DNA of 52,516 nucleotides. Origin: Trichoplax sp. H2 (taxonomy: Eukaryota). A model generated the notes under the pieces. The model saw nothing but the letters and a program-made list of their open reading frames with translations. It ran no database searches and had not been told where the DNA came from. This document shows positions 143-42,946 of the stretch, in pieces. Position numbers and translations under genes: made by a program. The stretch spans positions 117,558 to 170,073 of the forward strand of contig NOWV01000171.1 in NCBI GenBank assembly GCA_003344405.1, in the 5' to 3' direction. The stretch's first letter is position 1. Every line of letters begins with the position of its first letter.

Positions 143-879
143 ATGGGGACGGAAAAAGCTGATCCTGATGTAGAATTTCGTGGTGAGAAGCAGGCAGTTT
201 CTGGCTTCCACCTATCTAAATTGCAAGTCATATTAATAATTCTTCTATCGATTGGCGTAGTTGTATTTACTGGAATTTTTGCTGGAGTTATCTTGCCTAG
301 CATCAATGCTGCCCACAGTACAAGCACTCAGGCACCAACTACACAACCACCAGCAGGAACTAATAATCCAACATCGACTTCGAATCAAGGTGGCTCGACT
401 TCAACGCCACAGTCTGCCACTTCCAAGCCTTATGTTATTCCTTCACCTCAACCAACACAACCTACACCTACTTCTTCTTATGCCGCCGTTAACAAACCAC
501 GTTTGCCCACCGATATTGTACCTGTTCAATATTGGTTAACATTGGAAATTGATATGACCAATTTGAATTTTTCTGGTGACACTACCATCGAGGTTACTGT
601 TAAAAAAGAGACAAATACAATTATTCTTCATGCATCTGGATTGACTATGACTCAAGATCCTCAGGTGACTAATAATCGAAACTATGATGGCTCTACCACT
701 TACTACACGATTAGCACCAAGGGAACGTACGCACCCAATCAATATTACTACATGATGATGCAGAACAATTTAACACCAGGAACATATTATTTACGATTCC
801 GCCATACTGCTCCATTATCAACCCGCTTGGACGGATTATATAAATATCAGTATACTAGAGCGTCCACCGGAGAAAAAAT
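143..879 (+). CDS. Gene A exon 1 (N-terminal tail, signal-anchor TM, mucin-like Ser/Thr/Pro stalk, start of ectodomain)
   Basis: ATG at 143-145 is the first ATG after the in-frame stop. The donor is AT|GTAAGT at 880-885 (phase 2), the same phase as exon 1 of genes B and C. Confidence 0.8.
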
Positions 880-11737: not shown

Positions 11738-11997
11738 TCATTTAATCTGTTGTTGTAACTGATTGGCAATATCATGACATCCACATTCTTGTAAATCCAT
11801 AATTAATCGGAACGGTATGGCCTTTCGGCCTGATTTCATCAACCACTGATTTAACATAAGACGAACTTTATCATCAACCGCATTTTCCATATGATCAGTA
11901 ACATTTAAATCGAACTTAGATAAACCTAGTCTTTTGGCTAATTCTGTCCATTTATTGCCAATATTTTCCATGACGCACTTGAAAAATGGTGACACGG
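11738..11997 (-). CDS. Ankyrin-like gene terminal exon: death domain
   Basis: Minus ORF 11738-11995: …WTELAKRLGLSKFDLNVTDHMENAVDDKVRLMLNQWLMKSGRKAIPFRLIMDLQECGCHDIANQL… matches the death-domain pattern (W..LA..LG.S..DI..I…LL..W..R.G..A…L…L…I). Acceptor is ttactag|CC. Stop is at 11738-11740. Confidence 0.75.
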
Positions 11998-14900
11998 CTA
12001 GTAACGGAACAGTAAATGAAGACAGAAATGAGGAAGGACTAAAACTTGGCGATATATTTTCTTGTTAAATCCCGAAGTATCGAACATTAAGAGAGTAGTA
12101 TAAATTATAAAATTGTGCATTGATATATATGTCGTCAAAACTATGTAGAGTTGGTTACTATGCATTATGCCTACTTATGGTCGATCATATTATTTCGTTT
12201 ATGTGAATTTATACAATGTTATGAAAAGCTAATCATTGTTTATTTACTAAAAATCATCTAAATATTATGGTAAATTTTGCAATAAGTGATTTAATTGCAA
12301 CAGTTGGAACTAGTAGAAATCATTTTACTCTCAAGTATTGAAAATCATTTACCTGAATTGAGAGGCCTAAATGCTTTATCATCAACTGTTCGATGAGTCT
12401 ATAAAATGGATGAAACTATTAAACATATCTAACGGTCTTCCTTTCACTGATCTCTTCTCGTTTATTTTAAGTAAACATCATAGAAAAATAATATTCAATA
12501 TAGTCTAGATGTTTAAAATGTCAGATGTATAATATTTGTTGGTGCTCTCTTGTTCTTGCAAAATATTTTACCATAGCAAGTTTCATTATATAGTGACCAC
12601 TACGTAAGATGGCGGCCCTTTACCAGGCTTTATTCGCTATCTAGCATATTTCACTGTCTGGTAAATAAGTGCTTAATCTGATGATTTCTATGCTAGCTAC
12701 AGGTATTATTTTAGAATCTAATATTATAAACTACTTTGTAAAACTTCATATATGCGATTACTCAGGGATATTTTTATCAAGAGCACTAAAAACGATTAAA
12801 ACTTATATCATAATAGAACGTCAATGATTATAATTACGTATTTGTACATTTAAGTAAGACGAAATATAAATTATATTACTTTTGAACTCCAGAAACCTGT
12901 CCTATTCTAAGGATTTTCTAATGATTGCCTTATTTAAAAGTACCTTGAGGATGGACACTTTCCACTTAATTTCTGATCGGTGTTGACTATTGTCACTGAT
13001 TATAATTCGACCAATTAATCCAGCATCAGGCAATTTCTCGGTCAATTGGCAAGCAAAATCTTCTAAGATCATGCTACCATTGAAGACAACTGTCTGAATA
13101 AGCGTTTCTTGTCCCAAATCCCGGTCAGCATTAAAGCCTTTACCCGTCAATTCGATGTTATAATAGCCATTTTTAATGCGCAAATCTCTAGCAAATCCAA
13201 CTATATTTGAAAATCCAAATTGATGATCTAAAGATTCATTCGATCGTAATACGACAATGCGGAAAGCAGTACGGAAATTATCTTCGCAGTCATCTACCAT
13301 CAAAACGTAGCAATTATAATAATCTGATATACTCGGATAACGGAAAGCAGGCCCTAATTCATAATGATCCAAAACTGATCGCTCATATTTATATAACCCT
13401 ACAAAAGTGGAAAAACGGCTGATTGGAAAGGAAAGGCTTTCATTACCCTGAGCATCTCGATTTACACGGTAATCAGCATCAATTAAATGCCATTCTGGTC
13501 TCTTTTCTTCAACACAATCACTATACCATAACGTTAATGGCAATGTATCATCTAAAGTTAAATTGAATTGCTGCCTAATTTTATCGCTATCCGGCAGAGG
13601 CAATGTCACTGTTACACAGTCCATGTCAGTACTTTGAAATTCATGATGATGTGGGCGAAACATAACCACAGGTGTAGCTTGCGCAAATGCTTCTGTTTCA
13701 TATGGATCAGCACCGTATGGCGGATCAGCATAAAATATTTTAATTTCGACTACTAAATCTGTGCTCGCACAATCAGCAGGTATATGACACTCAACTGAAG
13801 GGATAGACGGAAGTGTAACATAGCCTCCGATATTGGCTTCAATTTCGTGCTCATATGTAGGGTATCCTGTCAAGAAAGTAAGGATAGCTTATAATTAAAT
13901 GGCATGAGATATAAATGGCAGTTTTTGAGGAAAATATGTTTTAGTTTCTCTAACAGCATAGACACACATATTTCATCTATTTTGATGACTATTTCTACCT
14001 GTATTAGTTAATTCTAATCGATCTTCAAATTTCGCTTTGCCACTCATTATTTCTTCGTTGCTATTACCGATACTGCATTAAAATTTTAAGTTAATATGAA
14101 TGTAATAGAAGAAAATCTGTTTAACAGAAAGATACAAGCCCGAATAACATGAATTCTATAACGGTCGTCTATCTTACATTTCCAGAGATGCTTCCGAGTT
14201 TGAACCTACTAATAAATGATATCGAGTACAAAGTCAAATTATTCAATCGATTAATTTAATAAAATAGTTAGACATAGTGAATGCTATTATTAAATCATAA
14301 ATTACAACTGTATCATTTTAGCATGATTCTTATAATACAATATATTATGGTAATCTATAGATCAAAGTAACGTTTTAAGAATGATAACTGATGCTATCCG
14401 GGTTGATCATAGCTAGAGATAACTATACTTTAGTAATTTGTACATTACAATAACTAACAAGAAGCACATAGAATACATGTGGCAAGTAAACTACGTATAA
14501 ATTCAAAATAAGCGATGCAATATACGCCAATATAAATGATCAGAAATAGTTTACAGTAAATTTATGTAATGTATCAAGCTAAGAAAAGTTAAGTTTTTCA
14601 GACTTACTTATATCATTTCGTAGAGACTTAGTTCTGGATATATCAGTGCTCTACCGTAGATGTAGAAATACAGTAAAAACATGTTATTTGGGAATAATTT
14701 AAAATTTTTTTTAAATTGATAAAAAAGTTGAAGATTAATCATCACATAATATCTTGAATTAATTCAAATCAGGTTTTCTATCTCACGTTTCTAACTCCAA
14801 TTTCCAATATTCAGTGTTTTTGGGTTCATACTAATTTAGTGTAGTTTACTATACTGTACAATGTACATAGGGTTTACACCAACTAAAATTTTTTATAGTA

Positions 14901-17900
14901 GCGCAAAGATAGAGAGAAACTAATTTTAGATTAGTCATAGTATATCACTGCTTACGGTAACAGAGCGATGGAAGAATACTTTTTCAACAGTGGTCATGAA
15001 GCTATTACCAAGAGCAATATCTTTAGCTGTTTTACCATCCTAATAGCGTAAAAAGATGTATAATTAAAGTTTAAAATTATTTCCTTTACCGGTTAGTTTT
15101 CATTAAAAAAATGAGCATTAGCAAGTTAAAATTAAAACTAAACGGACTATAATTTCTAGTGTTTGAAATCTATCTTGTAGGTATAATATTAAACGTATAC
15201 GTACGTGTATACCACATATAATATATTTAGTATGATAGCGAAAATGTTGATAATACCAATTAAATATATCACAGATATCAAAGCTTTCAGATTACTTACA
15301 ATTCATACCAATTTATCATTGCTATTCTTAAAAGTACGAAATTTGTGATTATCTCTCCTTAAAATAGACGTTTGAGAATCTTTGTAATATCAAAAGCAGA
15401 CTTACATTATTTACTTCATGAATGTTGGCATTATGTTCCAGAAGCATGTGCACACATTTTTCATGTTGATACCGGGAGGCCAAATGTAACGGTGTGTTAC
15501 CATTCTAATAATTAGTTGCCAAAAGAAATCAAAATCTAGAATATCAATTCTGCTAGGAATATGAATATGTCACTTCTAATTGTTATGAATTAGTTAAAAA
15601 GTTCAGAAAAATAGGATTGTAAGAATTGCTCAGAGTAGAAAAGATATTGCGATCCCATAAGTTGACGGCTATTTCTAGCTGGCTTAATTGCATAGATTAA
15701 AAATAAAGAATCGAAATAGAGTCTTACAATATCTTTGTTATCGATATCAATTTCATCTTGCTTCAAAAGCCATTCTAAAACGTCGACTTTACCAGTTTTT
15801 GCAGCAATATGCATAAGAGTTCGGTTTTCCTGTATAAAATAAAAATAGTAAATTTCAGTGTTTTAAAGGAGACCAAAATCAGAACAGGTTAAAGTAAGTG
15901 TTTGAAATTAGATATTTAGTGCGGAGTACACTATGCAAGGAAGGTATGCATCTAGGGTAGTTGTAAACTAGATAAAATTTAGATTATATCTGTACATCAT
16001 CTCTAGACAGTTCCTTACTTTACAGACGATTAATTTTTCACCAGCAATTATGAATAATTACTACTAAATTTAGCAATATTTATGTAATGTCAAATAGTAA
16101 TTGATTTCAGCAACGTTCTTCTCTCCTTAAATGTAGCATGTTAGCTAATGATATCACTCAATACCTCACATTTTATAAGACAAAACTCTACTCCTCTATT
16201 ATTTGAGTTATTACATTTTATTCGTATTATTAAAACAAATCACAATAGACCTTTAAACGTTATAACGAATCAGATAAGGATATTAATATTTTAATGATGG
16301 ATTTAGGATCATTATCGACTTCTGCACCGTATAAAATACGCAGTATCATACCTAATAGTTACCGTATTCAAATTGAAGAATAGTATTAGCTGTAATTGAA
16401 GATGTAACTCAAAACTACTTTAATTTTAGTCAAAAAATTTCAATACATGGTGAGCTACTTGCTTAGCTATTTTAGAGTGAAATTTCAACTGCAATTAAAA
16501 TTTAAAAAGTATCCTTTTTAATTAGGCTATTTTAAACATAATACTTACATCGTCACGAGCTGTCAAACTGTTGTTATTATCATATAAAATCTTTAGGAGA
16601 TGTAAGAAGCCATACGAAGCCGCATAATGCATAGGTGTCTGCTGATATTTCTGTCAAGATCAAAACGTAAATTAGAATTATTACTGTCCTACTCTGTCTT
16701 GATCAATCATAACTATTGTGAGCTGTAGCGATGTTTAATCGAATAAACGATATGGAGTAGAACTAACATCTTTAGCGTTAGCATTGACACCAAATTGAAG
16801 TAGCAATCGCACAGCATGGTGATCGTCATAATCAACTGCTTTATGCAGTGCATTTCGATGAAAGTGCCTCTATTGGCATAAATATAATCCAAATCAACAA
16901 GACATTACGTTATGTTTAAGTTAACTATCAAATTGCCAAATTGAGTTATCCTTCAAGTAGTAAATTATAATCGCATTATTTCTGAAAGAATACGCAATAC
17001 CATCCAAGATTTCTAACCTTATCATGTACGTTGATGTTTATATTATTCTTGTTCATTTCCTTTAATACTACCTCATTTCGGCAATGTGCAATCCTGTAGA
17101 TCTCGTTAGTGGTGATCTGTAAGTTAATTAATGAGCAACAATCAATAGTTGTTCCACTTATTTATCGAATTGCATTATATAATTCTTACCGAATATTTCT
17201 TGCCAAATTTCTTATTTCAATCATTATTTCAAATCAAGAAGTGATATAAAATATGAAGCATTACTTATTCACAGAATTACATACCGGTAATTTATCAAGT
17301 GCATCACTAAAAACACTGAATAAGCTAATACGAATTTATTAGCTAAGTGATATAATAGAATGAACGATGTCTTGTATAATATTTTAATAAATTATTCAAT
17401 TTCTGACAAGTACAGTCATGGTATAGGTACATACAGAAATGTTTTTGGAAGAATTAAGATTCTTTACTGATGTCTTTTCTGGTAATTTTGCAACAGAACT
17501 TTCCGTTGAACTTATCACCTTGCTGCTGCATGATGATCGATCGTCAGGGCTATTTTCATTATCTTGCTCATATGACGCACTATTAGCACACTAGAGTATA
17601 AATGGCAAATGGGTCATCCATGACAGTAGAAATCGAAATCATAAGCTAGCAATTCACAACTTAAAGATTAGGTCGTTGATCATAATTACTCGTCCTACCC
17701 AAACGATACTATGCACCATTGCTTCAATGGTATCAGTACATTGATTTTCTACTGCTAGATCAGTGGCTGTCTTATTATCCTAATAAATTTTAAGGTCGAA
17801 TAGAATACTGTTAACTTTTTCAATCCATTTACTTTCGAGCTATATTTATAGCACTAGCGTACAATGTAATGCCTATTGTAAGATAGCTTGGTAAGTTAAT

Positions 17901-20900
17901 TGCCTGAATAGTTCTATATTGTTCAATGCTAGCATTATAATTAGTAATTTCTATCAGTAAAGAAGACATTTATTAGCGTAGTAAAATGAATATGAAAATA
18001 TTTAGTATTTAAATTAATATGCTTTAAGTTAAGGAATGCAGAAATGAAAAGCTCTTTCAAATACTAGCTGCATCATAATTCAATTTGGCATTTTATAGTC
18101 ATAAATAAGATTAGAACGATCAAATGAGCAATTACTGGGTATCATTAATTAAGAGGATTTATTCTAATTTTCTTTCAGTATCATAGTAGATAATTTATAC
18201 CAATACGTATTAGAGATATTACTAAAAGAGATACTTTCATTATATTCTAAAAAACTTGAATATTAGTAAGGAATCATACCGGTATTTCTTTACTTACAGA
18301 ATTCCTTATATTAACGCCTCCGCCATTGCGTAGTAAGATTTTAACGCAAGCTGTTTTACCATTGCTAGCAGCTAAATGAAGTGCTGTACAGCCATCCTAT
18401 TTTAAATTCATAAAAATATCTAATGCTAGTCGTAAAATGTATTTGGTTTCTTTAATGTTAGCAACGCAATTTGATCACTCGAAAAAAATCAGTGTGATTG
18501 GTTATTGAAATCTTGGTTTAAGAACTACTGTTATAATTACTTTAAAATATAAATTTTGGATCGATTCATGATATTTCTTGTAATGTGTTATTTCTTATCA
18601 TGAGAAAAACCCTCGATCCTTATATGAGTACCGTACATGCAGTACTTACCGAATTTTGATAATTTACTTCCACATTTTGTTCGATTAACCATTTTAATGT
18701 TGTTGGTTTACCATTCTTGGCCGCGAAATGTAAGGGCACTGATTTCGTCTAGCATTACGAGTAGAGAAAGAATAAGATAGCGTTGAGTTAGAAAGGATCG
18801 AGATTTATAGTATATTCATAATACTCAATTTCAGATCTATAGTACGTTACTTAATAAAATTGAGCGAGTGCAAAATTGAACTCGCCTGTGACTATAAAAA
18901 CGTATATTAGTGACTGCTACTTCTTCATATTCACTTTTAAATTATTCATTAATTACATTGTGACCCTCAAATATGTTCAATAAAACACCTGTTACGTTTA
19001 TGTCATTGGTAATTAAGCAAGCATTTTAAGTTCATACAGATACAAGTTTTATCTAATAAAATTACGAGCAGTAATAGATTGAAAAACATGTACTGCTATT
19101 GAACTATCAAGATCTGGATTAGTAAGTTCCTTTAGAACAGGTTTCTGAGACATAAATAGTTTGATTTATAAGATTTTACTTACATTATCCATGGCCATTA
19201 GGTTCCCTTTATTAGCGAATAATACTTTTAAAATTTCTATACAACCAAATCCTGCTGCATGATGTACGGGTGTAGCCTCCCATTTCTATTAAATGAAAGA
19301 AAATATATTCCATGCCTAAAACTTTCGTAAGCTACTGAAACTTTTCATTCTTGAAAATATCATTCTTTCATGCTAATGCCCTTTATAAATCATTAAAATT
19401 AGCCAAGCAAGCCCTTCTTACATCGGTGGCATTTGGATTCGCTCCATAATTTAGTAAAGTCATGACAACTCCCAGATCTTTATATTCCACCGCTTTATGC
19501 AAGGCTGTTCGATCAAATTGTGTCTATAACGATCATATAGCCATGATCAAGTAGGTAACATATACAGTAACCAGTCAACAAGCAAATTAATTTCATAACC
19601 TACTTCGCAGTTATCTATATATGTTCAGCAAGTGTAAGCTACAAGTGTCCTTTCCGTTTTGAAATAAATTTTTTAACAGTCATCTACCTTATCTTCCATA
19701 TCGATATCTTTCGCATGACCAGCTAAAAATTTTTCTTCTCTCAATTTTGCTGCTTTATAAATAATATCGGTAGATACCTATACATATTCAGAGCATGGTA
19801 TTAGTGTGTTACATTAGCTGATAGAAGGGCGATAATCGATAATTAAGAAGATAAGAATCCTACAGTTTGTTTATTTCGAATGCCTGTAAGGGATAATGTA
19901 CTTGCTCGTCTGGGCTAAAAATTAAATCATAACTTAAGATAAGTAGCTATTAGTTTACTCATACGATATCTTCCATCAAGTTGGAATGTATTAAGCAGAG
20001 TCCATGGCATAAAGTAATTATTTCCAGATAATTTAACCTAATTAAATCTTTTTACTACGCCAATCTGACAAACCTTAAATCATTAGGAAGCTAGAAGCGT
20101 AGCAATGCAAAATTTATTGCTTCGGTACATTTTTTAGAAAACGCTAAGCATTGATTCTATTCATGCTAAGTGAAACTGATTGACTGACATACGTAACAAT
20201 ATGATTTTACAGTAAATTTTCTTGTTTTAACAGCATATACGTAAGACAACCGTAACTTGCTATTAGAACTTTGCTACCTTGTTATTAGCTGTTGTGGCAA
20301 CATTGATACCCTTGAATAGATTGACAACATTATCGTGACCTTTCATGTTGGCAAGATCTTCAGCCGTTTTGTTATCCTAATAGCAGAATTATAGATCATA
20401 TTAATTGTTACCATCGCTTATTTGTGAAAAAGCTTTTGATCGTTTTATTAGTTTTAGGATAGAGATAGCTCTTGTTAATCTTTAAACTACTAAAAGAAAT
20501 TATTAAGCTTTCCTTCATTCATTGTAAAAGCATATCAGGACAGCATGATGGGCTTTTACAACTAATGAAGCATTATCTTTACTAGATTTCTACACTAAAA
20601 GATGAGATAGACGAGTTGTGATGTCTTAAATGAAATGTTACGATTCATAAATTTCTGAATTGGTAATCATAATGAATGATTTCGAAAAAGTAGTCCATTT
20701 TATAGAATTTTGTGAAAAATCTATAAGTCATATTTACGCCTTTGTACCGTCCTTGAATCGAATTATATTAGAATTTAGCACGTCTAACAAATACCTTATT
20801 GAATACATCTGATGATGCTTTACTCTCCAGTAGCATCCTGACGCAAGTAAAGTTTCCATAAAGTGCTGCTAGATGTAGAGGTGTATTTCCATCCTAATAT

Positions 20901-22621
20901 GTGTACAATTACTAGATCTGGTTATACAGGTATCCGTTATAAGGAACATTATATTTCAGAGTACAAATAGTAACAACTGACATAAATTGTAAAATATTTA
21001 AATTTGAGTTGAAAATGATGTTCTTCGGAAATAGATAAACAGCAACTAAATTGATTAATATGGAAGGTTGCGATTAACTTACTTCTCTCTTGCAATTTAA
21101 ATTAAGACGGCGTTGAATTAGCCAGAGCAAAATGTCAGAACGATCGTATTTTGCAGCAAAATGCAAAGGAGTTCCAGCTTGCTATCAGATTTGGAATTAA
21201 CAGGTTACAAATATATTTCGAGCAATTGCGTAATAAGCGTCGAAGTTTTGATAATCTATTATCAATTGTAATTACTTTATCTGTCGCTTCTAATTCTCCT
21301 TTTCTAGTATGTAAAACTTGTAAAATTTCTAAGTAACCTTCTTTAACAGCATAATGGCAAGGTGTTAAACCCCATTTCTATGTCAGAAATATTGTACAGC
21401 GAAAACAATGTATTAGTAAGTGCTTAAAATTTAAAAGGTAGATTATTTCGTCAGATTTTAACTATCTTAAAACGTAAAAGAGTATATTGACATATATATA
21501 TATACTTTCTCATTTATGCATACATCCTTAACTACGAATATAATGCTGTTCTGATTATCGCTAAGGCAAACACTTTTGGAAAAATTAATTGATTATTCGT
21601 AAGTATATTTCAGCTATCAACTCCAGTATATCATATTGCATGCAAAGATATTGAGCACAGTTGCCAAAGAGTCCGCTGGATCTATGATCATTTGAAATTT
21701 CATTTTAAATAAATTTTTATCAGCTATTCATACAGTTATCCTGAAGTAATTTAACTGAATTTTTATGAAGCAAGAAATGGAGTATACTGTAAATGTAAAT
21801 CTTTCAGCTAGTTTATAACCATTGCTGTAAGATTCAGAAAATCGTTATCGAAATGGGGTATTGATTGAAATGCATTTATTAGTTAGTACTGTATTTATGG
21901 CTAAAAATAATCTATGGCATCATCATGGCGTAAAATATCTTTTAAAATAAGAAATGTAGCATACTGTAAATGTAAATCTTTCAGCTAGTCTATAACCATT
22001 ACTGTAAGATTAATGAAATCGTTATCGAAATGAGTCTTGATTAAAATGAATCTATTTGTTAGTACTAATTATGGCCAAAAATAATCTATGGTATCATCAT
22101 AGCGCTAAATATCTTTCAAGTTAAATTTGCCTATTAATTAATGCCATTTCTACTAGTAAAGTCGTCACTTACATCGCCAATATTTGGATCAGACCCATTT
22201 AATAGTAACAGTACTGCAGCCTCAAGATCTCCTTCTTGGACTGCCTTATGTAAGGCGGTAGATGATAAATTATCCTGGAATTTATAATGCATACCAAGAC
22301 ATATAAAATTACACTTTGTTAGATTATCTGATGTGTCTGTTTCAGGCAAGCATAATGGCTTACAGACTTACATCGGTTAAATTGATATCGGTATGAATGA
22401 TTAAATTTTCTAACGTTTCCTCATTGTAGCTTTTGGCAGCATTTAAAATATCTTGCATCGTATACTGCAGATGAGTAGATAAAGATTATTAAAAATAAAA
22501 TTGGACTAATTAGTGATTGCACTTAAATACATTATCCGAAGTATTCGATAATTATTTGACTGATAGAAATCAAACTCACAGCGGAAGAGGAACCATTCTT
22601 TGCATCCGCTTTTTCTTCCAT
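11738..22621 (-). CDS. Ankyrin-like gene: N-terminal ankyrin repeats, then a ZU5(/UPA)-like region and a C-terminal death domain. Span is start codon to stop codon, with many ~100-nt exons.
   Basis: Minus-strand exons encode canonical ANK repeats, for example DGNTPLHLAALYGNFTCVRMLLE (~20810-20900), QAGTPLHFAAKYDRSDILLWLIQ (~21060-21160), DGCTALHLAASNGKTACVKILLRNGGGVN (~18290-18390), TKSVPLHFAAKNGKPTTLKWLIE (~18650-18750) and ENRTLMHIAAKTGKVDVLEWLLK (15728-15829). The 3' end is a ZU5-like exon (ORF 12902-13873), a 46-nt linker exon and a death-domain exon (ORF 11738-11995), all of whose phases are mutually consistent. Confidence 0.8.
12353..12398 (-). CDS. Ankyrin-like gene 46-nt linker exon (THRTVDDKAFRPLNS)
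   Basis: Acceptor is ttttatag|ACT and donor is TTCAG|GTAAATG. This is the only exon that restores the frame between the ZU5 exon (leaves in phase 0) and the death-domain exon (requires 1 nt). Confidence 0.5.
12944..13866 (-). CDS. Ankyrin-like gene large exon encoding a ZU5-like (and probable UPA-like) region
   Basis: This is minus ORF 12902-13873 (323 aa). IGGYVTLPSIPSVECHIPADCAS…IKIF is a ZU5-type pattern (compare GGxLxLPxxGVSLxIPPGAI in UNC5 and ankyrin). Acceptor is cttgacag|GA and donor is CTCAAG|GTACTT. The length is 923 nt, entering in phase 1 and leaving in phase 0. Confidence 0.7.
15728..15829 (-). CDS. Ankyrin-like gene ANK-repeat exon (ENRTLMHIAAKTGKVDVLEWLLKQDEIDIDNKDI; 102 nt)
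   Basis: Within minus ORF 15590-15814. Acceptor is ttatacag|GAA and donor is GATATT|GTAAGA. Confidence 0.65.
21763..22127. repeat. Tandem duplication of a ~182-bp unit, 2 copies, in an intron of the ankyrin-like gene and ending ~45 bp from exon 3
   Basis: …agtatactgtaaatgtaaatctttcagctagtttataaccattgctgtaagattcagaaaatcgttatcgaaatg… (~21775) recurs as …agcatactgtaaatgtaaatctttcagctagtctataaccattactgtaagattaatgaaatcgttatcgaaatg… (~21957). Confidence 0.8.
22173..22274 (-). CDS. Ankyrin-like gene exon 3 (DNLSSTALHKAVQEGDLEAAVLLLLNGSDPNIGD; one ANK repeat, 102 nt)
   Basis: Within minus ORF 22134-22349. Acceptor is ttccag|GAT and donor is GGCGAT|GTAAGT. Confidence 0.65.
22372..22464 (-). CDS. Ankyrin-like gene exon 2 (YTMQDILNAAKSYNEETLENLIIHTDINLTD)
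   Basis: Acceptor ctgcag and donor GAT|GTAAGT on the minus strand. It resembles the pre-repeat N-terminal segment of ankyrins (…[24 protein letters not shown]…). Confidence 0.6.
22582..22621 (-). CDS. Ankyrin-like gene exon 1 (MEEKADAKNGSSSA)
   Basis: The minus-strand ATG at 22621-22619 is followed by GCT|GTGAGT (donor = plus-strand actcac at 22574-22579). The phase is compatible with exon 2. Confidence 0.5.
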
Positions 22622-25600: not shown

Positions 25601-28579
25601 TACAAACATGTGATCATTGTTATTTGAAAATGTGAGCTAATATCTTTTCCTAGTTGCCTATAATCGTCAAAATTGACTACTTCTTGCAGCAAATAGTAGA
25701 GTAGTGATACGGTACTTAAAAAAAATGTTACAGGAGCATCACTATCTTAGAGTTGTAAAATATTTCTTGCTCGGGATTTTACTTAATGCAAAATGGTTTT
25801 GACATTTAAAGTACTATTCACGCTATATTCAGGTCATGCTGGTAGTTGCTTTTAATATTAGTAATTTCGCTATTACCAATGTCGCCTTATAATCCACTTA
25901 AAATTGAATGCAATAATTCTTAAAATATTCAAGTGCAAACTTAATAGAATAACGCTATTATCCGCTTTTAGTAATCAATATTTATTTCAAACGTATTTTA
26001 TTCTTTCCATTAGTAACGACGCAGTTGACCTATCTATGAAGCAATCTGAAATTCATAAAGTAAAAGAATTACTGGTTTAAAGGTCTTTGACAGGAGTGTT
26101 TAAGGGCTATCTGCAACAGATTGAGCAACGATAAATTGGTTTTGATTCTGCTGATAGGATAATTATAAAGTGTGATATGATGGTCTTACGTTCGGGTTTT
26201 ATCTTATTAATATAGCTACTTTCAGATCGAATTATTAGCTGTACTGTAAAATTAATCTACATTTTCTCAAATTAACTTCAGCAGCTGCTATTTATTAAAT
26301 AAAAATACCAGGAAATTGCTAAATTTGAATTTATAAATATTTTAACATGTAACAAATTAAACGAATTGAAACATTGTTCTATTTGAATTTTTTTCGGCAC
26401 GATGTTAATTTTTAAACAGCTTTAATAAATATGATTCGTTAATCAATTGAGGCATTGTATAAAAATCTCTCAGGGATCACTGTTTCGTACCAGGTACCAT
26501 ATTGGTACGGTATCGGGATTTGATCAAAAAGGTAAATAACTCGGATTAAAATTAATATAATAGCCAATATCTAGTCCTTCCAAGATTATTGCAATTGCAT
26601 TGGTCTATTTATCTTAACTTACATAACATATTTAAAGTTTCCATTCTTTAATAACTTTCTATTTGATTATAATATACTTCTCAATCTCGCACTTATCTAG
26701 TCTTTCCGAATGTGACTTTATAATTACATCGTCTCAACTCCCATAGTATGTATGATAAAGTGTCTTCTCAAAAATACAACAAGAAATACAGTTTCTTGTA
26801 AACTTTACTTTATTACATAAGATTAGGTTCATTTGGCAACTATCAAGGACTATTTAACTGCAATCAGACTATCTCCACTATCTTGGATCGTAATCAAAGC
26901 TATATTTGGGGCAGCAGTATTATGTTAAAAAGCCTTTCATTTTTTTTACAGGCTTAAATTGTATTACCCTATGATGCTAATGTGTACAATTTTATAAGAT
27001 TTTCTAAATATACTAGGAAATTGACTGGATAGAACTTTATTTAATTATTATGAATAGTACTATCTGTTATTAGCTTGATAGGATTGGATTGATGTATTCG
27101 ATATTACCATCATCACTATATTTTCTATTCGAAACTATTTAGTCTGGCAGGTGTATTTTGCAATACTATAGTAATTATTGTTGATTACTCTGTGACGGCT
27201 CCAGCAATTTCGTTTGAAATTGAAAATTTAATTGTAGAATGGGTGTAGACGAGCTTATGTCAATAAATAAGAACAAAAAATTTCCTAAGCATTGATTGTA
27301 TATAGCACAGATATTTGCATGTCATCCGGATTATGGTTGTCAGCAGTTGAATAAACTTTTATCCAATCAGTCATTTAAAATTCTGAAAATCTAAGCTTGA
27401 TCTGAATTACAGCTTTTGATAAATAAAATGAGTTATTAGGTATTGCTGTCTGTTATGATTATGTTGAACTTTTCACCTGTTATTACAATGTCAACGAGAG
27501 CAAGATAGTAAACAATGTACTGTATATCTATTGCAGTAAATTTCGTATATTATTAAGAAGAAAGTCAATTTTTTTGCCAACCAGCTCAAACCAACTATTC
27601 TAAAATACTAAAAATAATAATAATTAATTAATTAATCAATGTTAATTATTCTTGCGCTTTACATCAAGTCTCAGATACACATGTAGCTACAATAATGTAA
27701 TTTAAATACTGTACGAAAATAGCTTTGCTATTTACTGAGGTGAATGAAATAGAATCGAATTGATGGCATTGGATAAAAAAATATTTATCTACTACAAATA
27801 ATAAAAATATATTGAATCTATGAATATAATTATTTAAAGAGATAGTCATTAGCTACCAACGATAAAGGTCGCACCAAGGTATGCCTCATTTACTGTTGTT
27901 TCATCAGAAGGTAATAAATTATTAAAGCGAATCGATTTTGACTGTTACTATCTTTGCTATGGAGAATTTCTTTACGTTCTAGTTGCAATGATATCCTTCT
28001 AGCTATCATCTCGACCTCCAATTTTGCACCACAATAGTTGCTGATCAATCTATAATGATAGTTACGAAATGATTCAATATTCGTACTGATCCGGAAAAGC
28101 GCTGTGATTTGTATTCTAGCACTAGTCATTTTGCTATCCAATGTATTGGCGTTATGAAAGCGATGATGATGGCGTCGTCGTATCGAATAGTCGCCGTAAG
28201 CTATTATTGCATTGATTCAATATAATATACTGTACTGCATACTGTATATCGATGAGAACAAACAAACAAATCAATCATTCACATTTACAGGTACACGAGC
28301 GAGCAAGAAACACTAATAAAATCTCTTTTTCCCTCGAACAAGCCCTAGCAGTGACTACCTCTGGGACATTTTATTCTATGGATTGCATTGGCTTCAATGT
28401 CGTTTCCTACGAATACATAATCAATATCGATCGGTTAACCGCTCAACGCTGGTTGCTTGCACAGCTGGCATCATTTTAACGCCTATGCCCAAACTGCCGT
28501 CTAACTATAACACTGGTACAGAAGATAGTTTTACTATCTATAATGAGTGCACTAATGGGCTACAACAGTTTTTGCAAGT

Positions 28580-29215
28580 CGATTATAACAAAGAGAAAAT
28601 GAGAGTAATAACCAGTGTTGAAAACACTGAATTAACTAGTGTTGACTGTAATATGAACAATCGTATACGTAAAGTATTTGCTAACCGTAAACGCCATTGC
28701 ATGTACAGAGCGGGTGGAAAGTTTAGGCCATGTCTAGTTAGCAAGCAATGCAAAATGAAAGTATTAACCAGTGTTAAAGCAATGGAATTAACTAGTGTTG
28801 ACCGTAGTATGAACGGTGGTATACGTAAAGTATTTGCTAACCGTAAACGCCATTGCATGTACAGAGCGGATGGAAAGTTTAGGCTATGTCTAGTTAGCAA
28901 GCAATGCAAAATGAAAGTATTAACCAGTGTTGAAAGCAATGGAATTAACTAGTGTTGACTGTAGTATGAACAATCGTATAAGTAAAGTATTTGCTAACCG
29001 TAAACGCCATTGCGTGTACAGAGCGGGTGGAAAGTTTAGGCCATGTCTAGTTAGCAAGCAATGCAAAATGAAAGTATTAACCAGTGTTGAAAGCAATGGA
29101 ATTAACTAGTGTTGACCGTAGTATGAACGGTGGTATACGTAAAGTATTTGCTAACCGTAAACGCCATTGCATGTACAGAGCGGGTGGAAAGTCTAGGCCA
29201 TATCTAGTTAGCAAC
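28580..29215. repeat. Satellite-like tandem array of a 156-157-bp unit, about 4 copies, with two alternating unit variants
   Basis: The marker aaccagtgttg recurs at 28610, 28766, 28922 and 29079, giving periods of 156, 156 and 157. Copies 1 and 3 share …ctgtaatatgaacaatcgtata…, while copies 2 and 4 share …ccgtagtatgaacggtggtata…, an A-B-A-B pattern. The edges are degenerate at ~28580 and ~29215. Confidence 0.9.
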
Positions 29216-30134
29216 CATTGCGTTAGCCTACCGTACACGTCTTGGATCATATCCTATTAAGGTAGTAATATGAATAATACTAATTTTAAAGTATGAGATT
29301 TTGTGCATTAAAAATAAAATTTCATATATGCTGTATAAGCAATTTTTTTTTCCAAGCCATATACAGCATGACTGCTTTGGGCAATTTGCCACTTCATCTT
29401 GACGTTCATATTAAGCAGTCCATGACTGTACCTCTCACTGACACTGTCATGGACTACAATACTGTACAATGTGTAGAATTTCTTTCTGGAGCAATGAGTG
29501 CATACTTTTATTCCGATTTTTGCATCAAAATTCTCAACATTTTCAACGTGTAGCAAGAGGAAGGTCTAAATGCTATCGATTCATAACAAAAATTCAATAG
29601 AATCTATCAATTTTGGTCAGTTTTATTTCATTTTTTATTTCATTTTGAAAAATGTGAATCGAATTTCTACTCGCTGTACACTACAGTGTACAGTACAAAA
29701 GCAGTGTCGTACTGTACAGTATAGCGGGTTCTCTACAATGTACAGTACAATATACGGTGCTACAGGACGCCTGGACAAAAGCAACCTCTGGACAAGCTGT
29801 TGGTGGGTGAATATCATGACAGGTGCATCGGGCCTTTTCGATACCTGGTGTTTTCATTCATTGCATCATTCATTGTTGATCAGGAAAGCAACAACGACTA
29901 AAAATATCACTTTCAATATTACTTGATCATGATTGATTCTAATAATAGAGATCATTTTATTCATATTTCTTCATGAGTACAGTACAGTATTTTAATGAAC
30001 TGCAATTGGCTTGCTTGTATGGGTAACAATGCATTTTAGCCTAAAATTGCAGATAATAATAGGGGATTATTTATAGTTCAAGTCGGGCTTCTATCGTTAA
30101 CCAACACCTTGAAAAGGGTAGAGCCATCGACGCG

Positions 30135-30173
30135 TATATATAAGCATTGGCAATCATCGTATAGTGTCATTGG
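30135..30173 (+). promoter_or_regulatory. Putative core promoter of gene B: TATA box plus two inverted CCAAT (ATTGG) boxes
   Basis: TATATATAAG at 30135-30144 lies ~85 bp upstream of the gene B ATG. ATTGG is at 30146-30150 and 30169-30173. Confidence 0.45.
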
Positions 30174-30225: not shown

Positions 30226-30935
30226 ATGGACGCTGGAGATTCTGATATTGAAAGTCATGACAATGATCAATTACTAGGAGATGGGTATAGTAAATCCGAT
30301 GAGAAAAGAAGACTGTTTAAAACGGCCGATTCATCCGAACAATTCCATTCGGATAGCCGTTTCGCACGCAATAAACGTTGTTTTATCTTTGGTGCAATAT
30401 TAGCTGGTGTTGTCATCTTAGCCATTTTGATCGGGATCATTGCAAAATCTAAAGCACAAATCAACGGTTGTAATCAATTGAGTAGTTCAACCCACGGCAA
30501 TGATGATAGCTCTCAATTCAATAACATTAGCGTTGACGGGAAAAAATTCCCCTATACGGCATCTCGTCTACCATTGCATTTACAGCCTATTCAATATCAA
30601 CTTTTATTAGTACCAAATATCCAAGCCATGAATTATAGCGGCCAGGTATCGATTATTATCAGAGTTAAACATCCCGTCGACTACATCGTTCTACATCAAC
30701 GACAATTATACATAGGTACTATTCACCTTGTTCACACCAGAGATCCATCAAGAAAATTGAAGGTAGTCCAAGTATTAAAAAATACCTATAACGAGTATTT
30801 GTATATTAAAGTCAACGAAACCATGGCAAGGTACAAGTTCTACACTTTGAAAATTCTATTCAGCGGTCAGATAGCTACCAATAAATTGATTGGAGTCTAT
30901 AGAAGCATATATACTACAGCAAACGGTGATAAAAG
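30226..30935 (+). CDS. Gene B exon 1
   Basis: The ATG is preceded by a TATA box ~85 bp upstream. Donor is AAAAG|GTAAGA, phase 2 (710 nt = 236 codons + 2). Confidence 0.8.
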
Positions 30936-33900
30936 GTAAGACGACATCTCGGCCAGTATCCATGTACAGTAAATGTACTTTTACTAGAATAAAGTAGTAG
31001 CACAGTCTCACGATAATCCTGCCACAAGATATAACTAGATATAATCTTTCGCCTCTTTTCAGTAACGATGATAATAAAGTATCATCGTAGTCCAGCACAT
31101 TTTGTACTTGCCGTTGTCTTAATAGGCAAGTTAGTGCTTCAAAGAATGAAGTACACTGCCATTTCTCATTTCTTTTTCATCCATACTAGGAATTTTAAGA
31201 GTGGAAATTATCCCTTTTAGTCTCGTATCATTGTGTTTATGCAAAGCATAATGTACTTGAATGTGTTTTAAAGTCTTATGGACTAAATTTAATCTGACCT
31301 GCAATTCTACAACGTGTAGAGACTCTCCATCTTCGCTTTTAGTATAGTACTGTAACTTCTCATTGAACTGTTGTTGCAATCAACACGAGAAAATGTCGCA
31401 ATTCTTCGTGAATTCGACATTGAAACGACCTTTACATGCTAGTTTTATAAAAATTAGAAACTGTTATCGCTCTGAGATTGCGTTTTAATCCATAGGCGCT
31501 ATAGCCAAACCCAGATTAAAATCCAATCGTAGCTTTTATTTTCTCTCTACTTCTATTGTGCTGCATGTAGTACCCGGTATACATTTGCTATCCTCGGTTT
31601 TAATATAGTGCAGCTTCTAGTTCGACTGTTGTTGCAATCAATAAGTTGAGAGAATGTCGCAATTCTTCAATGGATGGTTACGTTGGAGCAACCCCTAGAT
31701 GCTAGTTTATAAAATTATAAAGTATTATCGCTCTGAGAAGGCGTTCAATCTATATGCGCTGTAGCCAAACCCATTAAAATCCAATCGTAGCTTTTATTTT
31801 CTTTCTATACTGTATCGCCATCGATGAATACATATAGTGGTAATTGTCAACAATAATACTTTAGCTGAATATTCTCTGCTTGAAACAATTAGTAAAGGTA
31901 TCGATATTGTCATTACCCTTTTAAGGAGATTTGAACTAGATTATTGATTTAAACTTTAAAACCCAATCATCCTTATTTCAGTCGTATTCAAGCCACTTCT
32001 TCATACTTGAAGATGGAATCTTAAAAAGCCTAAACTCGAGGTTCACCTTACTTCATCCCTTTCGTTTTTTTTGTAATGAGTGAACTGATGATGCTATTGA
32101 TGCATGCTAATATTACAGTAGAATATCTTCAAAGATATCAAAATTGGATGTATTGAAATTTAGAATTGTTATGAATTTGATCGTTAATAATGGCGTACTT
32201 GTATTATGTAATTATCTTCTGTTAAGAGCTAAGCGATGCTGTTGCTACTACACAGAAGATTGCTAATATTACTCCCTTTGATGTGAACTCAGAAGTATTT
32301 CAGTTATTTCGAAAATGAATCGGTTTACTGATTATGGTATTCATTTAAGGCGATAGTTGTACAGTCCTATGTCTTGAAAATTTACTAGTTCAGCCTGTTG
32401 GTACACTTTCGCTAAGTAGGAAACAATGCCATACCATGCTATACTCTACGTTTTTCCTAGTTTCATTTGCTTAGTAAAGCAATAAATGGGTTGGATATTA
32501 TTCATAAGGGGTTGAGAATGGTAAAGAATTTGTGTGTATCTTTAGTACATCGAAATTTAATATACTCGCAAGTTATTAATAGAACACGCCAATGCTTTGT
32601 TATAACGTATCTTATACTACTGTATACGCGGACGTTAGAGGGATATCATAATTTAAAGCAGACATAGTAAAAGGGAACTTGTGCTAACATTAAAGGATCC
32701 TTAAGTAAACTTTAGCCTTGTTACCATTAGACTTCCGCTTGGATATTAAATAATGCCTTTACGCAGTACTGCATCATCAACTGGGAGCGTCTCTGTTAGT
32801 ACGAACAGTACTAATAACAGCATGCAGAGCTATAATAACTGTAGAAGCTGGGGAATTTCTATCCTATTTGATTAATGTACTGTTTTATTCCGAAAGGAAA
32901 TCAGTTTCTATTTTAAAAAAAACAACATTGTTTTGCGATCTATTATCATTATCCACTCAAATTGTAATTTATAATACTAGATGTTGTACCATAGCTTCTG
33001 CTTACGGTATAATCGCGAACACTCTACCGTTTCATCTGGAATCCTATGGAATCGCTACAGTTACTTTTATATCGAGCATAGTTTTCAAAATTTAGTTTGT
33101 GTTGCAAATTGTATACTACTGATATAAAAGCATAAATTAGTTAAGCGTCTCAACCAATTTTCTTTCATTTTATCTTTTCTTCTGCTGTAGAGTAACGATA
33201 TCAACCGATTTTGAACCTGCCGATGCTAGATCAGCCTTTCCTTGTTTCGATGAACCAACTTTTAAATCTCATTTCAAAATAAGTATAATACGGCCTCTTG
33301 TTGATAAATGGGTAGCACTGTCAAATATGCCTATAGAATCAATTACCAATCTGCAGAATGGTTATGCTCAAATTAACTTTGCCAATTCAACTTACATGAG
33401 CACCTATCTAGTTGCTTTCATCCTATGCCAGTTTGATTCACTAACAACGAATACTTCCAATGGCATTATGGTAATAATAATCATTCTTCATGTACTGTAC
33501 GGTATTAATGTAATATTATTTAAAGTTGCCAGTGAAACTTAGTATATAAATTTTTCCTACTGTCAAAGTCGAGAATCAATAGTCAATACTATCTTCTATG
33601 CCAAGAAGTTAATATTGATTATTCAGATATCATTTAGTATTTTTTAGTTACGTCTTAGTGATAATTATAACGGCAGTCTTCGTTCTTAATAAAGATACGC
33701 ACATGGTCGGTACCTCGCCAAATAAGCAAAACGCAGTATGCCCTAAATGTAGCTAGAGAAGTTCTAATGTTTTATGAAGATTATTTTGGTATAGATTACC
33801 CATTACCGAAATTAGGTAAAAGAATCTCTTTTTGATAGTCTTTCCACTTGAATTTAATCTTTATTTAGCATATCACATCAAAGTTACACTACAACATCAT

Positions 33901-42242: not shown

Positions 42243-42946
42243 ATGGTCAACGAGGCAAAATATCAACTAATCCAGAGTCGAAATGACGATGATGGACCCG
42301 ATGAAGTTCCTGATATAGATAGTACCATTAAATGTTGCTGCTGCCGAATAATGAAACATCGGGCTTATTTCTATTGCTTTGTACTTACAATAGTATTACT
42401 GTTTGCTATGATTTCTTTGGTATTAGCCATTGTATCACAAAATTATATTCGGCCCTCCGTTTCCAATAATGACACATCCAAATGTACAAGTAACATCAAC
42501 TTTACACCGTCATCGAATCAAGATCCTGCCAGACTAGCTTCTACCTCTACTAATGGTGAACTATTCCCTTATAGTCACACACGATTGCCACAAACTATAT
42601 TCCCATTACATTATGAGATCTACTTGCATCCTAACTACGCTAAATTACAAACTCATGGTGAAATTAAAATTAATCTAAGCTGTGTACAAGCTACATCGTT
42701 CATTTTGATTCATGCCAAAGATATCGATATTCAATCCGTCTTGATTACCGATTTCAGGCAACATCCTATAAATGTCAGTAAAACTTTACAAAACAACTAC
42801 AACGATTTCTACTATATTCAAATGAAAGAATCTTTTCAACCTGATCAAAATTACAACCTGGAGATGACTTTTATCAGTAAGATTTCAACAGAAAAGCTGC
42901 AAGGATTTTACCGAGCAAGCTACAGGGATATGACTGGCAATAATAG
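42243..42946 (+). CDS. Gene C exon 1
   Basis: A TATA-like element lies ~45 bp upstream of the ATG. Donor is AATAG|GTTAGC (weak, phase 2; 704 nt = 234 codons + 2). Confidence 0.7.

What the first reader, a model, noticed from the sequence alone, without database searches (positions are those of the whole stretch)
28580..29215. 156-bp satellite-like array with alternating unit variants between the divergent promoters of the ankyrin-like gene and gene B
About four head-to-tail copies of a 156-157-bp unit sit in the 7.6 kb spacer between the 5' end of the minus-strand ankyrin-like gene (~22.6 kb) and gene B (30.2 kb). Copies alternate between two variants (A-B-A-B), so a ~312-bp dimer was amplified. 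Each unit contains an internal imperfect sub-repeat (ttaaccagtgttga / ttaactagtgttgac) and a GC-richer core (ccgtaaacgccattgcatgtacagagcgggtgg). The unit is close to one nucleosome in length. The array could be a dispersed satellite or TE-derived family, or a boundary element between the two divergently oriented genes. The two >100-aa ORFs that overlap it are artefacts of the periodicity.
Basis: seen in the sequence. Interest (0 to 1): 0.6.

Follow-up and report, generated by a model that had tools for sequence, protein, structure and literature searches.

The report
Short 157-bp tandem repeat upstream of gene
A real but ordinary stretch of non-coding DNA in which a 157-base unit is repeated four times head to tail, about 1 kb upstream of an aminopeptidase gene in an animal genome; nothing shows that it codes for anything, belongs to a mobile element or has a function.

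Summary
Tandem Repeats Finder places the array at 28596-29221: period 157, 4.0 copies, 93% matches, and it is the only long-period tandem repeat in the window. Units alternate A-B-A-B, but only at four sites, all within a 16-bp block. The other 15 variable sites are each private to one unit. Each unit carries the TTAACYAGTGTTGA sub-repeat twice and has a GC-richer second half.

The array lies 1.0-1.6 kb upstream of the ATG of the middle of three tandem M1-aminopeptidase paralogues. An ankyrin plus death-domain gene lies on the other side, on the minus strand.

I found no second copy or lone monomer in the 52 kb. There was no hit in the metagenome, prokaryote-genome or viral collections, in 5.8 billion proteins, in Rfam or in the literature. 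The flanks are unrelated to the unit, and no convincing terminal inverted repeats bracket it. The orthologous upstream region of the nearest available relative has no repeat. The overlapping ORFs are artefacts: the consensus unit is not a multiple of 3, all diagnostic changes are non-synonymous, and there are no homologues.

Most likely this is a young array made locally by two rounds of duplication, partly homogenised in its interior and neutral. Whether it belongs to a genome-wide satellite or TE family cannot be tested without the source genome. Interest is low.

The parts
28596..28751 (+). Unit 1 (type A, 156 bp; private 1-bp deletion at unit column 34; 6 private changes, all in its first 57 columns)
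28752..28907 (+). Unit 2 (type B, 156 bp; private 1-bp deletion at unit column 25)
28908..29064 (+). Unit 3 (type A, 157 bp)
29065..29221 (+). Unit 4 (type B, 157 bp; 4 private changes, all in its last 29 columns)
28608..29115 (+). Span holding the eight copies of the 14-bp sub-repeat TTAACYAGTGTTGA. Starts: 28608, 28632, 28764, 28788, 28920, 28945, 29077, 29102. Two per unit, 24-25 bp apart.
   Evidence: at up to 2 mismatches the window holds 9 matches against 1.3 expected; 8 of them, each with at most 1 mismatch, are in the array
28804..28824 (+). The 16-bp block carrying all four A/B diagnostic differences, shown here in unit 2. Type B reads ACCGTAGTATGAACGGTGG; type A reads ACTGTAGTATGAACAATCG. 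In type B, ACCGT and ACGGT form a perfect 5-bp inverted repeat.
   Evidence: and direct reading
28383..28952 (+). 189-aa ORF over the left flank, units 1-2 and the start of unit 3: an artefact of the unit's one open frame
28583..28939 (-). 118-aa ORF on the opposite strand: artefact
30226..30939 (+). Context: exon 1 of gene B (M1 aminopeptidase, type II membrane anchor plus start of Peptidase_M1_N). The array ends 1005 bp upstream of its ATG. A TATA-like word, TATATATAAG, sits at 30135-30144.
22137..22367 (-). Context: the most 5' recognisable ankyrin-repeat exon of the minus-strand ankyrin plus death-domain gene

Best explanation
This is a young, non-coding, low-copy tandem repeat that arose in place, in the upstream intergenic DNA of the middle aminopeptidase paralogue.

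Proposed history. A unique 157-bp segment, already carrying a ~25-bp internal duplication, was duplicated in tandem. One copy then acquired a clustered 4-base change, giving types A and B. The AB dimer was duplicated again by unequal exchange or replication slippage, giving A-B-A-B. Since then the units have gained private point changes and two 1-bp deletions. Exchange between units kept the interior more uniform than the two outer edges.

Function. It needs no function to exist, and it most likely is neutral. Any effect on gene B would be incidental, through the eight-fold multiplication of the TTAACYAGTGTTGA word about 1-1.6 kb upstream of the start codon.

Shown: the anatomy, the variant pattern, the lack of coding or RNA signal, and the lack of relatives in everything searched. 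Inferred: the order of the duplications, the exchange mechanism and neutrality.
For: - Array and units.
- Only 4 clustered sites separate A from B, and all 15 other variable sites are private. So almost no ordinary substitutions fell between the monomer and dimer duplications, which points to a quick two-step expansion.
- u1/u3 differ at 8 sites and u2/u4 at 7, about 5%. The nearest relative differs by 24% in coding exon 1. The array therefore looks much younger than that split.
- Private changes crowd the two array ends: mean distance to the nearer end is 95.5, against 157 expected, P = 0.003. This is expected if the interior is homogenised by exchange.
- The flanks are unrelated to the unit (55/300 and 70/300 shuffles reach the observed score), so the edges are sharp.
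- No other copy or monomer in the window by blastn word 7, nhmmer --max or tblastn of the ORFs. The rest of the 7.8-kb spacer shares nothing with the rest of the window.
- The orthologous 2.6 kb upstream in the relative has no unit and no tandem repeat.
- No convincing inverted termini.
- No Rfam match and RNA folding z between -2.2 and +1.
- No protein homologues.
Against: - The source genome is not in any collection I could search. Its own exon-1 protein is not on record, and the best relatives are 74% identical. The absence of other copies therefore covers only 52 kb plus unrelated data.
- Short arrays of 150-180-bp units near genes are often members of dispersed, sometimes TE-borne, families in other invertebrates (PMC4675708, PMC7492417).
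- The array sits in a GC-richer block starting about 28.0 kb. A hairpin-rich segment follows it at 29328-29748. Either could be part of a larger inserted element or of a regulatory region.
Confidence: 0.55

Rival explanations
1. The array is one copy of a genome-wide family. It would be either a low-copy satellite scattered in gene-rich DNA, or the central repeat cargo of a non-autonomous transposon such as a Helentron/HINE, pearl or DTC84-type MITE, brought here by transposition or by rolling-circle/eccDNA reinsertion.
For: - The unit length (157 bp) and copy number (4) match the central arrays of such elements, which carry 1-5 core repeats of about 160 bp (PMC3879986; PMC7492417).
- Ordered repeat variants are described for DTC84.
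- A decayed (TACTG)n-like stretch lies 349 bp left of the array, at 28228-28247.
- A perfect 10-bp-stem hairpin lies 107 bp right of it, at 29328-29369.
- A weak gapped inverted pair sits at 28206-28240 / 29973-30006.
- The block from 28.0 kb onward has a different GC content.
Against: - No second copy, monomer or shared flank in 52 kb.
- The best inverted pair is barely above shuffles (8/200) and is built from TACTGTAC words that are over-represented across the whole window.
- It lies about 750 bp from the array's right end, not within about 60 bp as in HINEs.
- TRF calls no microsatellite between 28.0 kb and the array.
- No hit in any collection.
Confidence: 0.3
2. The array is a cis-regulatory module of gene B, or a boundary between gene B and the divergent ankyrin/death-domain gene. 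The duplications would have multiplied a transcription-factor site (TTAACYAGTGTTGA, 8 copies) or created phased nucleosomes.
For: - Position 1.0-1.6 kb upstream of the ATG, inside the GC-richer block that continues into gene B.
- Eight evenly spaced copies of one 14-mer that occurs nowhere else in the window.
- The unit length is close to the nucleosome repeat.
Against: - Nothing comparable lies upstream of the orthologue in the relative or of paralogue C. Only a short proximal block, 30016-30079, is weakly conserved.
- No 10-bp WW periodicity in the unit (384/500 shuffles reach the observed power).
- The units are decaying at the rate of about 5% between same-type copies, with no sign that the motif is spared more than the rest. 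Two of the 8 copies already carry a mismatch.
Confidence: 0.1
3. The repeat is expressed sequence: a repetitive protein-coding exon or pseudogene with 52-aa repeats, or a tandem array of small RNA genes.
For: One frame of the unit is open in all four units, and a 189-aa ORF spans units 1-2.
Against: - The consensus unit is 157 bp, not a multiple of 3. Units 1 and 2 are 156 bp through independent deletions at different columns.
- All four A/B diagnostic changes are non-synonymous: C to R, N to G, R to G.
- No Pfam family above cut-off.
- No homologue at E <= 10 among 5.8 billion proteins.
- The two weak hits of the minus ORF are translations of unrelated tandem repeats.
- No tRNA, no Rfam match below E 0.5 and no unusual RNA stability.
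Confidence: 0.03
4. The array is an assembly artefact: a collapsed or expanded repeat created by the assembler.
For: None found. Tandem repeats are a known source of copy-number errors in assemblies (general knowledge).
Against: - The four units differ from each other by 4.5-9%, with unit-private substitutions and indels. Read-stacking artefacts would give identical copies.
- The whole array is only 626 bp, shorter than a single long read.
Confidence: 0.02

Closest known systems
Euchromatic satellite-like tandem repeat families of invertebrates, e.g. the ~170-bp TR families in Tribolium castaneum chromosome arms (PMC4675708, PMC11610590)
   Same: Non-coding head-to-tail units of nucleosome-like length, in short arrays of a few units, in gene-rich DNA close to genes.
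   Different: Those are families with many arrays per genome. Here only one array is seen, and the genome-wide count is unknown. There is no sequence similarity to anything searched.
Tandem-repeat-carrying non-autonomous Helentrons / MITEs: Cg_HINE of Crassostrea gigas (PMC7492417), DTC84 and pearl of bivalves (PMC3879986)
   Same: A central array of 1-5 repeats of about 160 bp with ordered repeat variants. A hairpin lies to the right and a decayed microsatellite-like stretch to the left.
   Different: No 11-12-bp subterminal inverted repeats next to the array. No true microsatellite adjoining it. No conserved flank modules can be defined from a single copy. Multi-copy status was not shown.
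Higher-order (dimeric) repeat organisation of satellites
   Same: Alternating A and B variants, with dimer-register identity (95.2%) above monomer-shift identity (93.2%).
   Different: There are only two dimers, and the A/B distinction rests on one 16-bp cluster of four changes. That may be a single mutational event.
Large-unit minisatellite / VNTR formed by local tandem duplication
   Same: A single locus with sharp boundaries and unique flanks, few copies, and edges more diverged than the interior.
   Different: The unit (157 bp) is longer than the classical 10-100 bp minisatellite unit. Copy-number polymorphism was not tested.

Membership tests
Satellite DNA (dispersed or classical family) | Head-to-tail tandem arrangement of a non-coding monomer | tested here: met
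   TRF: period 157, 4.0 copies, 93% matches. Coding was rejected.
Satellite DNA (dispersed or classical family) | Many copies or arrays in the genome | not testable with these tools
   The source genome is not available. Within the 52.5-kb window there is no further copy. There were 0 hits in metagenome, prokaryote-genome and viral collections.
Satellite DNA (dispersed or classical family) | Long arrays of tens to thousands of units | tested here: not met
   Four units, 626 bp, with sharp edges.
Higher-order repeat (dimer) | Units one period of the HOR apart are more alike than neighbours | tested here: met
   u1/u3 94.9% and u2/u4 95.5%, against 91.1-94.3% for A/B pairs. Dimer register 95.2% against 93.2%. 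The support is only 4 clustered sites.
HINE / pearl / DTC84-type tandem-repeat-carrying transposon | Central array of about 150-190-bp core repeats | tested here: met
   The feature is as described in PMC7492417 and PMC3879986.
HINE / pearl / DTC84-type tandem-repeat-carrying transposon | Microsatellite module in the left flank or adjoining the array | tested here: inconclusive
   TRF calls no microsatellite between 28000 and 28595 or directly after 29221. The only candidate is TACTGTACTGCATACTGTA at 28228-28247, and the TACTGTAC word is common across the window.
HINE / pearl / DTC84-type tandem-repeat-carrying transposon | 11-12-bp subterminal inverted repeats in both flanks, the right one within about 60 bp of the last repeat | tested here: not met
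   The best inverted pair between the 1-kb flanks is 28206-28240 / 29973-30006. It is gapped, scores 31 against 25 +/- 2.6 in shuffles (8/200 reach it), and lies about 750 bp from the array end.
HINE / pearl / DTC84-type tandem-repeat-carrying transposon | Palindrome or hairpin at the 3' end | tested here: inconclusive
   A perfect 10-bp stem at 29328-29337 / 29360-29369 lies 107 bp after the array. It is one of four such hairpins in 29328-29748, so it is not specifically tied to the array.
HINE / pearl / DTC84-type tandem-repeat-carrying transposon | Multiple dispersed copies with conserved flank modules and empty sites | not testable with these tools
   This needs the source genome.
Protein-coding repeat | Unit length a multiple of 3, an excess of synonymous change, and homologues | tested here: not met
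   Consensus 157 bp. The diagnostic changes are all non-synonymous. There are no homologues.
Known structured RNA family / tRNA-derived repeat | A match to a covariance model or tRNA, or a stable conserved fold | tested here: not met
   Rfam gathering mode gave 0 hits and e-value mode a best E of 0.59. ARAGORN gave 0. Folding z was -2.2 to +1.
Insulator / boundary element or nucleosome-positioning repeat | Insulator protein binding, phased nucleosomes, enhancer-blocking activity | not testable with these tools
   Only a sequence proxy could be run: there is no 10-bp WW periodicity in the unit.

The most novel reading that the evidence does not exclude
The array is the visible seed of a lineage-specific satellite or TE-cargo family in an unmethylated, compact, poorly sampled marine animal genome. 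At this locus it would act as a repeated binding platform (8 x TTAACYAGTGTTGA) or as a boundary separating the aminopeptidase paralogue from the divergent ankyrin/death-domain gene. Its copy number would be kept dynamic by exchange between units.
Probability: 0.07. Interest if true: 0.4.

Novelty: new member of a known kind. Interest (0 to 1): 0.15.

Why it matters
It matters little on present evidence. Short large-unit tandem repeats in intergenic DNA are common, and this one shows no sign of function. It could serve as a marker for copy-number variation. It is also a clean small example of array growth by monomer-to-dimer-to-tetramer duplication, with decay at the edges and homogenisation in the interior. 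If the full genome showed many copies, it would define a new repeat family in a lineage that is nearly absent from public databases.

Tried and rejected
1. Other copies in the window. blastn word 7, an nhmmer --max profile of the four units, and tblastn of both ORFs found only the array.

2. Public collections.
- The exact 21-mer GCTAACCGTAAACGCCATTGC gave 0 hits in metagenome, prokaryote-genome and viral contigs.
- The gapped sub-repeat pattern gave 0 in the metagenome and prokaryote-genome contigs.
- These collections hardly sample the source lineage, so the negatives are weak.

3. Array ORFs as a handle on related arrays in assemblies.
- The + ORF had no hit at E <= 10 among 5.8 billion proteins.
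- The - ORF gave 2 weak hits in 1.84 billion representatives. Both are translations of unrelated tandem repeats, so the scores are repeat-on-repeat inflation.

4. A degenerate fifth unit in the flanks. The 77% match at 29265-29294 is no better than shuffles, so I rejected it.

5. Terminal inverted repeats or a MITE structure. No convincing pair was found.

6. Orthologous locus. The relative's contig L001 covers 2.6 kb upstream of the gene B orthologue, and it has no unit and no tandem repeat. Non-coding DNA is not alignable at that distance, apart from one weak proximal block, so this shows only that the tandem structure is not conserved.

7. Rfam, tRNA search and RNA folding found nothing.

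8. Nucleosome-positioning periodicity was absent.

9. A literature search for sequence strings of the unit found 0 papers.

10. Identifying the organism.
- All three homologue searches returned only unnamed metagenome or Logan ORFs at 74% identity.
- One of those samples belongs to a marine biofilm study (PMC6355793).
- The species remains unknown. The ankyrin plus death-domain gene suggests an animal; that is an inference from general knowledge of where death domains occur, not a tool result.

Full report
**Observation**

The window is AT-rich (32% GC) and has few long ORFs. Tandem Repeats Finder reports one large array at 28596-29221: period 157, 4.0 copies, 93% matches, no indels in the TRF alignment, score 1091. 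Every other tandem repeat in the window has a period of 18 bp or less. The repeat finder and a MAFFT alignment give the following units:

| Unit | Coordinates | Length | Type |
|---|---|---|---|
| u1 | 28596-28751 | 156 bp | A |
| u2 | 28752-28907 | 156 bp | B |
| u3 | 28908-29064 | 157 bp | A |
| u4 | 29065-29221 | 157 bp | B |

Otherwise the description is correct.

**Internal anatomy**

- Nineteen of the 157 alignment columns vary.
- Four of them (columns 53, 65, 66, 68) show the A-B-A-B pattern. All four lie inside one 16-bp block: type A reads ACTGTAGTATGAACAATCG and type B reads ACCGTAGTATGAACGGTGG.
- The other 15 variable columns are private to a single unit: u1 has 6, u2 has 3, u3 has 2 and u4 has 4.
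- Same-type units are 94.9% and 95.5% identical. Different-type pairs are 91.1-94.3% identical.
- In dimer register the two halves of the array are 95.2% identical, against 93.2% when shifted by one unit.
- The 14-mer TTAACYAGTGTTGA occurs eight times, twice per unit and 24-25 bp apart, and nowhere else in the window. At up to 2 mismatches the window holds 9 matches against 1.3 expected.
- The second half of the unit is 47% GC and the first half 30%.
- Each unit also holds an 8-bp inverted repeat, TTGCTAAC...GTTAGCAA (direct reading). Folding energy is not unusual on either strand or in any phase, with z from -2.2 to +1.

**History inferred from the variants**

A and B differ only by one tight cluster, while every unit carries 2-6 private changes. 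So the monomer duplication and the dimer duplication followed each other closely, and most divergence is later.

Same-type units differ by about 5%. Exon 1 of the neighbouring gene differs by 24% at the nucleotide level from the nearest relative I could find. The array therefore looks much younger than that split. Exchange between units would make this an underestimate.

The private changes are not spread evenly. Ten of the 15 lie in the first 57 columns of u1 or the last 29 columns of u4. Mean distance to the nearer array end is 95.5, against 157 expected, P = 0.003 by permutation. This is the pattern expected when unequal exchange or gene conversion homogenises the interior of an array and leaves the edges to decay.

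The flanks themselves are unrelated to the unit. The best local alignments are matched by 55/300 and 70/300 shuffles, so there is no degenerate fifth copy.

**Context**

- The window carries three tandem paralogues of a type II membrane M1 aminopeptidase. Their first exons are at 143-883, 30226-30939 and 42243-42962 (Pfam Peptidase_M1_N).
- Between the first and second paralogue, on the minus strand, lies a gene with ankyrin repeats (exons from 15352 to 22367) and a C-terminal Death domain at 11741-12064.
- The array ends 1005 bp upstream of the gene B start codon. A TATA-like word sits at 30135-30144.
- GC content steps up from about 0.28 to about 0.38 near 28.0 kb, 600 bp left of the array, and stays up into gene B.
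- Apart from the array's own units matching each other, the spacer 22.4-30.2 kb matches neither itself nor the rest of the window.

**Is it coding or an RNA?**

One frame of the unit is open in all four units. This produces the 189-aa + ORF, and the minus strand has a 118-aa ORF. Several results argue against coding:

- The consensus unit is 157 bp. The + ORF continues through u1 and u2 only because each lost one base at a different column.
- The four A/B changes are all non-synonymous.
- No Pfam family reaches its cut-off.
- The + ORF has no hit at E <= 10 among 5.8 billion proteins.
- The two weak hits of the - ORF among 1.84 billion representatives are translations of unrelated tandem repeats.

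For RNA, Rfam gives nothing at gathering score and a best E of 0.59 in permissive mode. ARAGORN finds no tRNA.

**Is it a dispersed satellite or TE cargo?**

Within the window there is no other copy. Exact-pattern scans of the metagenome, prokaryote-genome and viral collections found nothing. No paper in the library holds strings of the unit.

These negatives are weak because the source lineage is barely sampled:

- The window's own exon-1 protein is not on record.
- The best relatives of two of its proteins are unnamed ORFs at 74% identity, from Logan runs SRR30664516/7 and two ENA metagenomes.
- One of those ENA metagenomes belongs to a marine biofilm survey.

I compared the flanks with the published architecture of tandem-repeat-carrying Helentrons and MITEs. 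That architecture has subterminal inverted repeats of 11-12 bp, a microsatellite in the left flank, a right flank within about 60 bp of the last repeat, and a 3' palindrome (PMC7492417, PMC3879986). The results were:

- The central array fits.
- The best inverted pair between the flanks (28206-28240 / 29973-30006) is barely above shuffles (8/200). It lies about 750 bp from the array and is built from a word that is common all over the window.
- No microsatellite is called next to the array.
- The hairpin 107 bp to the right is one of four in that segment.

Membership is therefore not shown, and one defining feature is not met. The multi-copy criterion cannot be tested here.

**Orthologous locus**

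Contig L001 from the relative covers 2.6 kb upstream of the gene B orthologue. It has no tandem repeat. It has no similarity to the unit, with a best nhmmer E of 0.12 over 30 nt. Its only collinear upstream match is a weak one, window 30016-30079 against L001 2459-2527 (72%, E 0.01). The tandem structure is thus not a conserved feature of this promoter region.

**Function**

Nothing in the sequence requires a function. The unit shows no 10-bp WW periodicity, so the nucleosome link rests on length alone. The eight-fold motif could act as a binding platform, but two of the eight copies already carry mismatches and nothing comparable lies upstream of paralogue C. I rate a regulatory or boundary role at about 0.1.

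**Verdict**

This is a real, ordinary, non-coding tandem repeat. It most likely arose in place by two quick duplications and is now drifting, with partial homogenisation of its interior (confidence about 0.55). The main rival is that it is one copy of a dispersed satellite or TE-borne family (about 0.3), which only the full genome can settle. It is a new sequence of a known kind, and interest is low.

Noticed in passing
whole window; densest at 29425-29989, also 1166-2580: The palindromic heptamer TACWGTA is the most over-represented 7-mer of the window (58 against 11 expected, z about 17). TACTGTAC occurs 19 times against 1.7 expected, 9 of them between 27.7 and 30.0 kb. TACCGTA is also enriched. 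The same word is enriched in the relative's contigs L001-L003 (5-6 against 0.4-1.1 expected). It could be a lineage-wide word, decayed (TACTG)n microsatellites, or a shared cis-motif near the 5' ends of the aminopeptidase paralogues.
   Followed up: partly
window 29328-29748: Four of the nine perfect >=10-bp-stem hairpins (loop 3-40) of the whole window lie in this 420-bp segment between the array and gene B. They are 29328-37/29360-69, 29417-26/29446-55, 29687-96/29709-18 and 29709-18/29739-48. About 0.05 would be expected for a segment of that size. Two of them are built from GTACAGTAC words.
   Followed up: partly
window 143-883, 30226-30939, 42243-42962 (first exons): Three tandem, same-strand paralogues of a type II membrane M1 aminopeptidase. 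Each is about 11-12 kb with many exons. Their first-exon translations look strongly diverged from one another on reading.
   Followed up: partly
window 11741-22367, minus strand: A gene with at least five ankyrin-repeat exons and a C-terminal Death domain. Its 328-aa exon (12905-13888) matches no Pfam family and has a single 74%-identical homologue among 5.8 billion proteins. It may be a lineage-restricted domain.
   Followed up: partly
whole window: CpG observed/expected is 0.96 overall and near 1 in gene bodies. There is no CpG depletion, which suggests a genome with little or no cytosine methylation.
   Followed up: no
window about 28000: GC content steps from about 0.28 to about 0.38-0.40, 600 bp left of the array, and stays raised through the array and into gene B. 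A 108-aa minus-strand open frame at 27893-28216 has no Pfam match.
   Followed up: no
window 30016-30079 vs L001 2459-2527: This is the only collinear non-coding similarity with the relative's orthologous locus (72% over 72 nt, E 0.01). It lies about 150-210 bp upstream of the ATG and may be a conserved proximal promoter block.
   Followed up: no
L001-L004 (relatives): The only relatives of the window's proteins in the large collections are unnamed ORFs at 74% identity. They come from Logan runs SRR30664516/7 and two ENA metagenomes, one of which belongs to a marine biofilm survey. The source lineage is essentially unsampled in those databases.
   Followed up: partly
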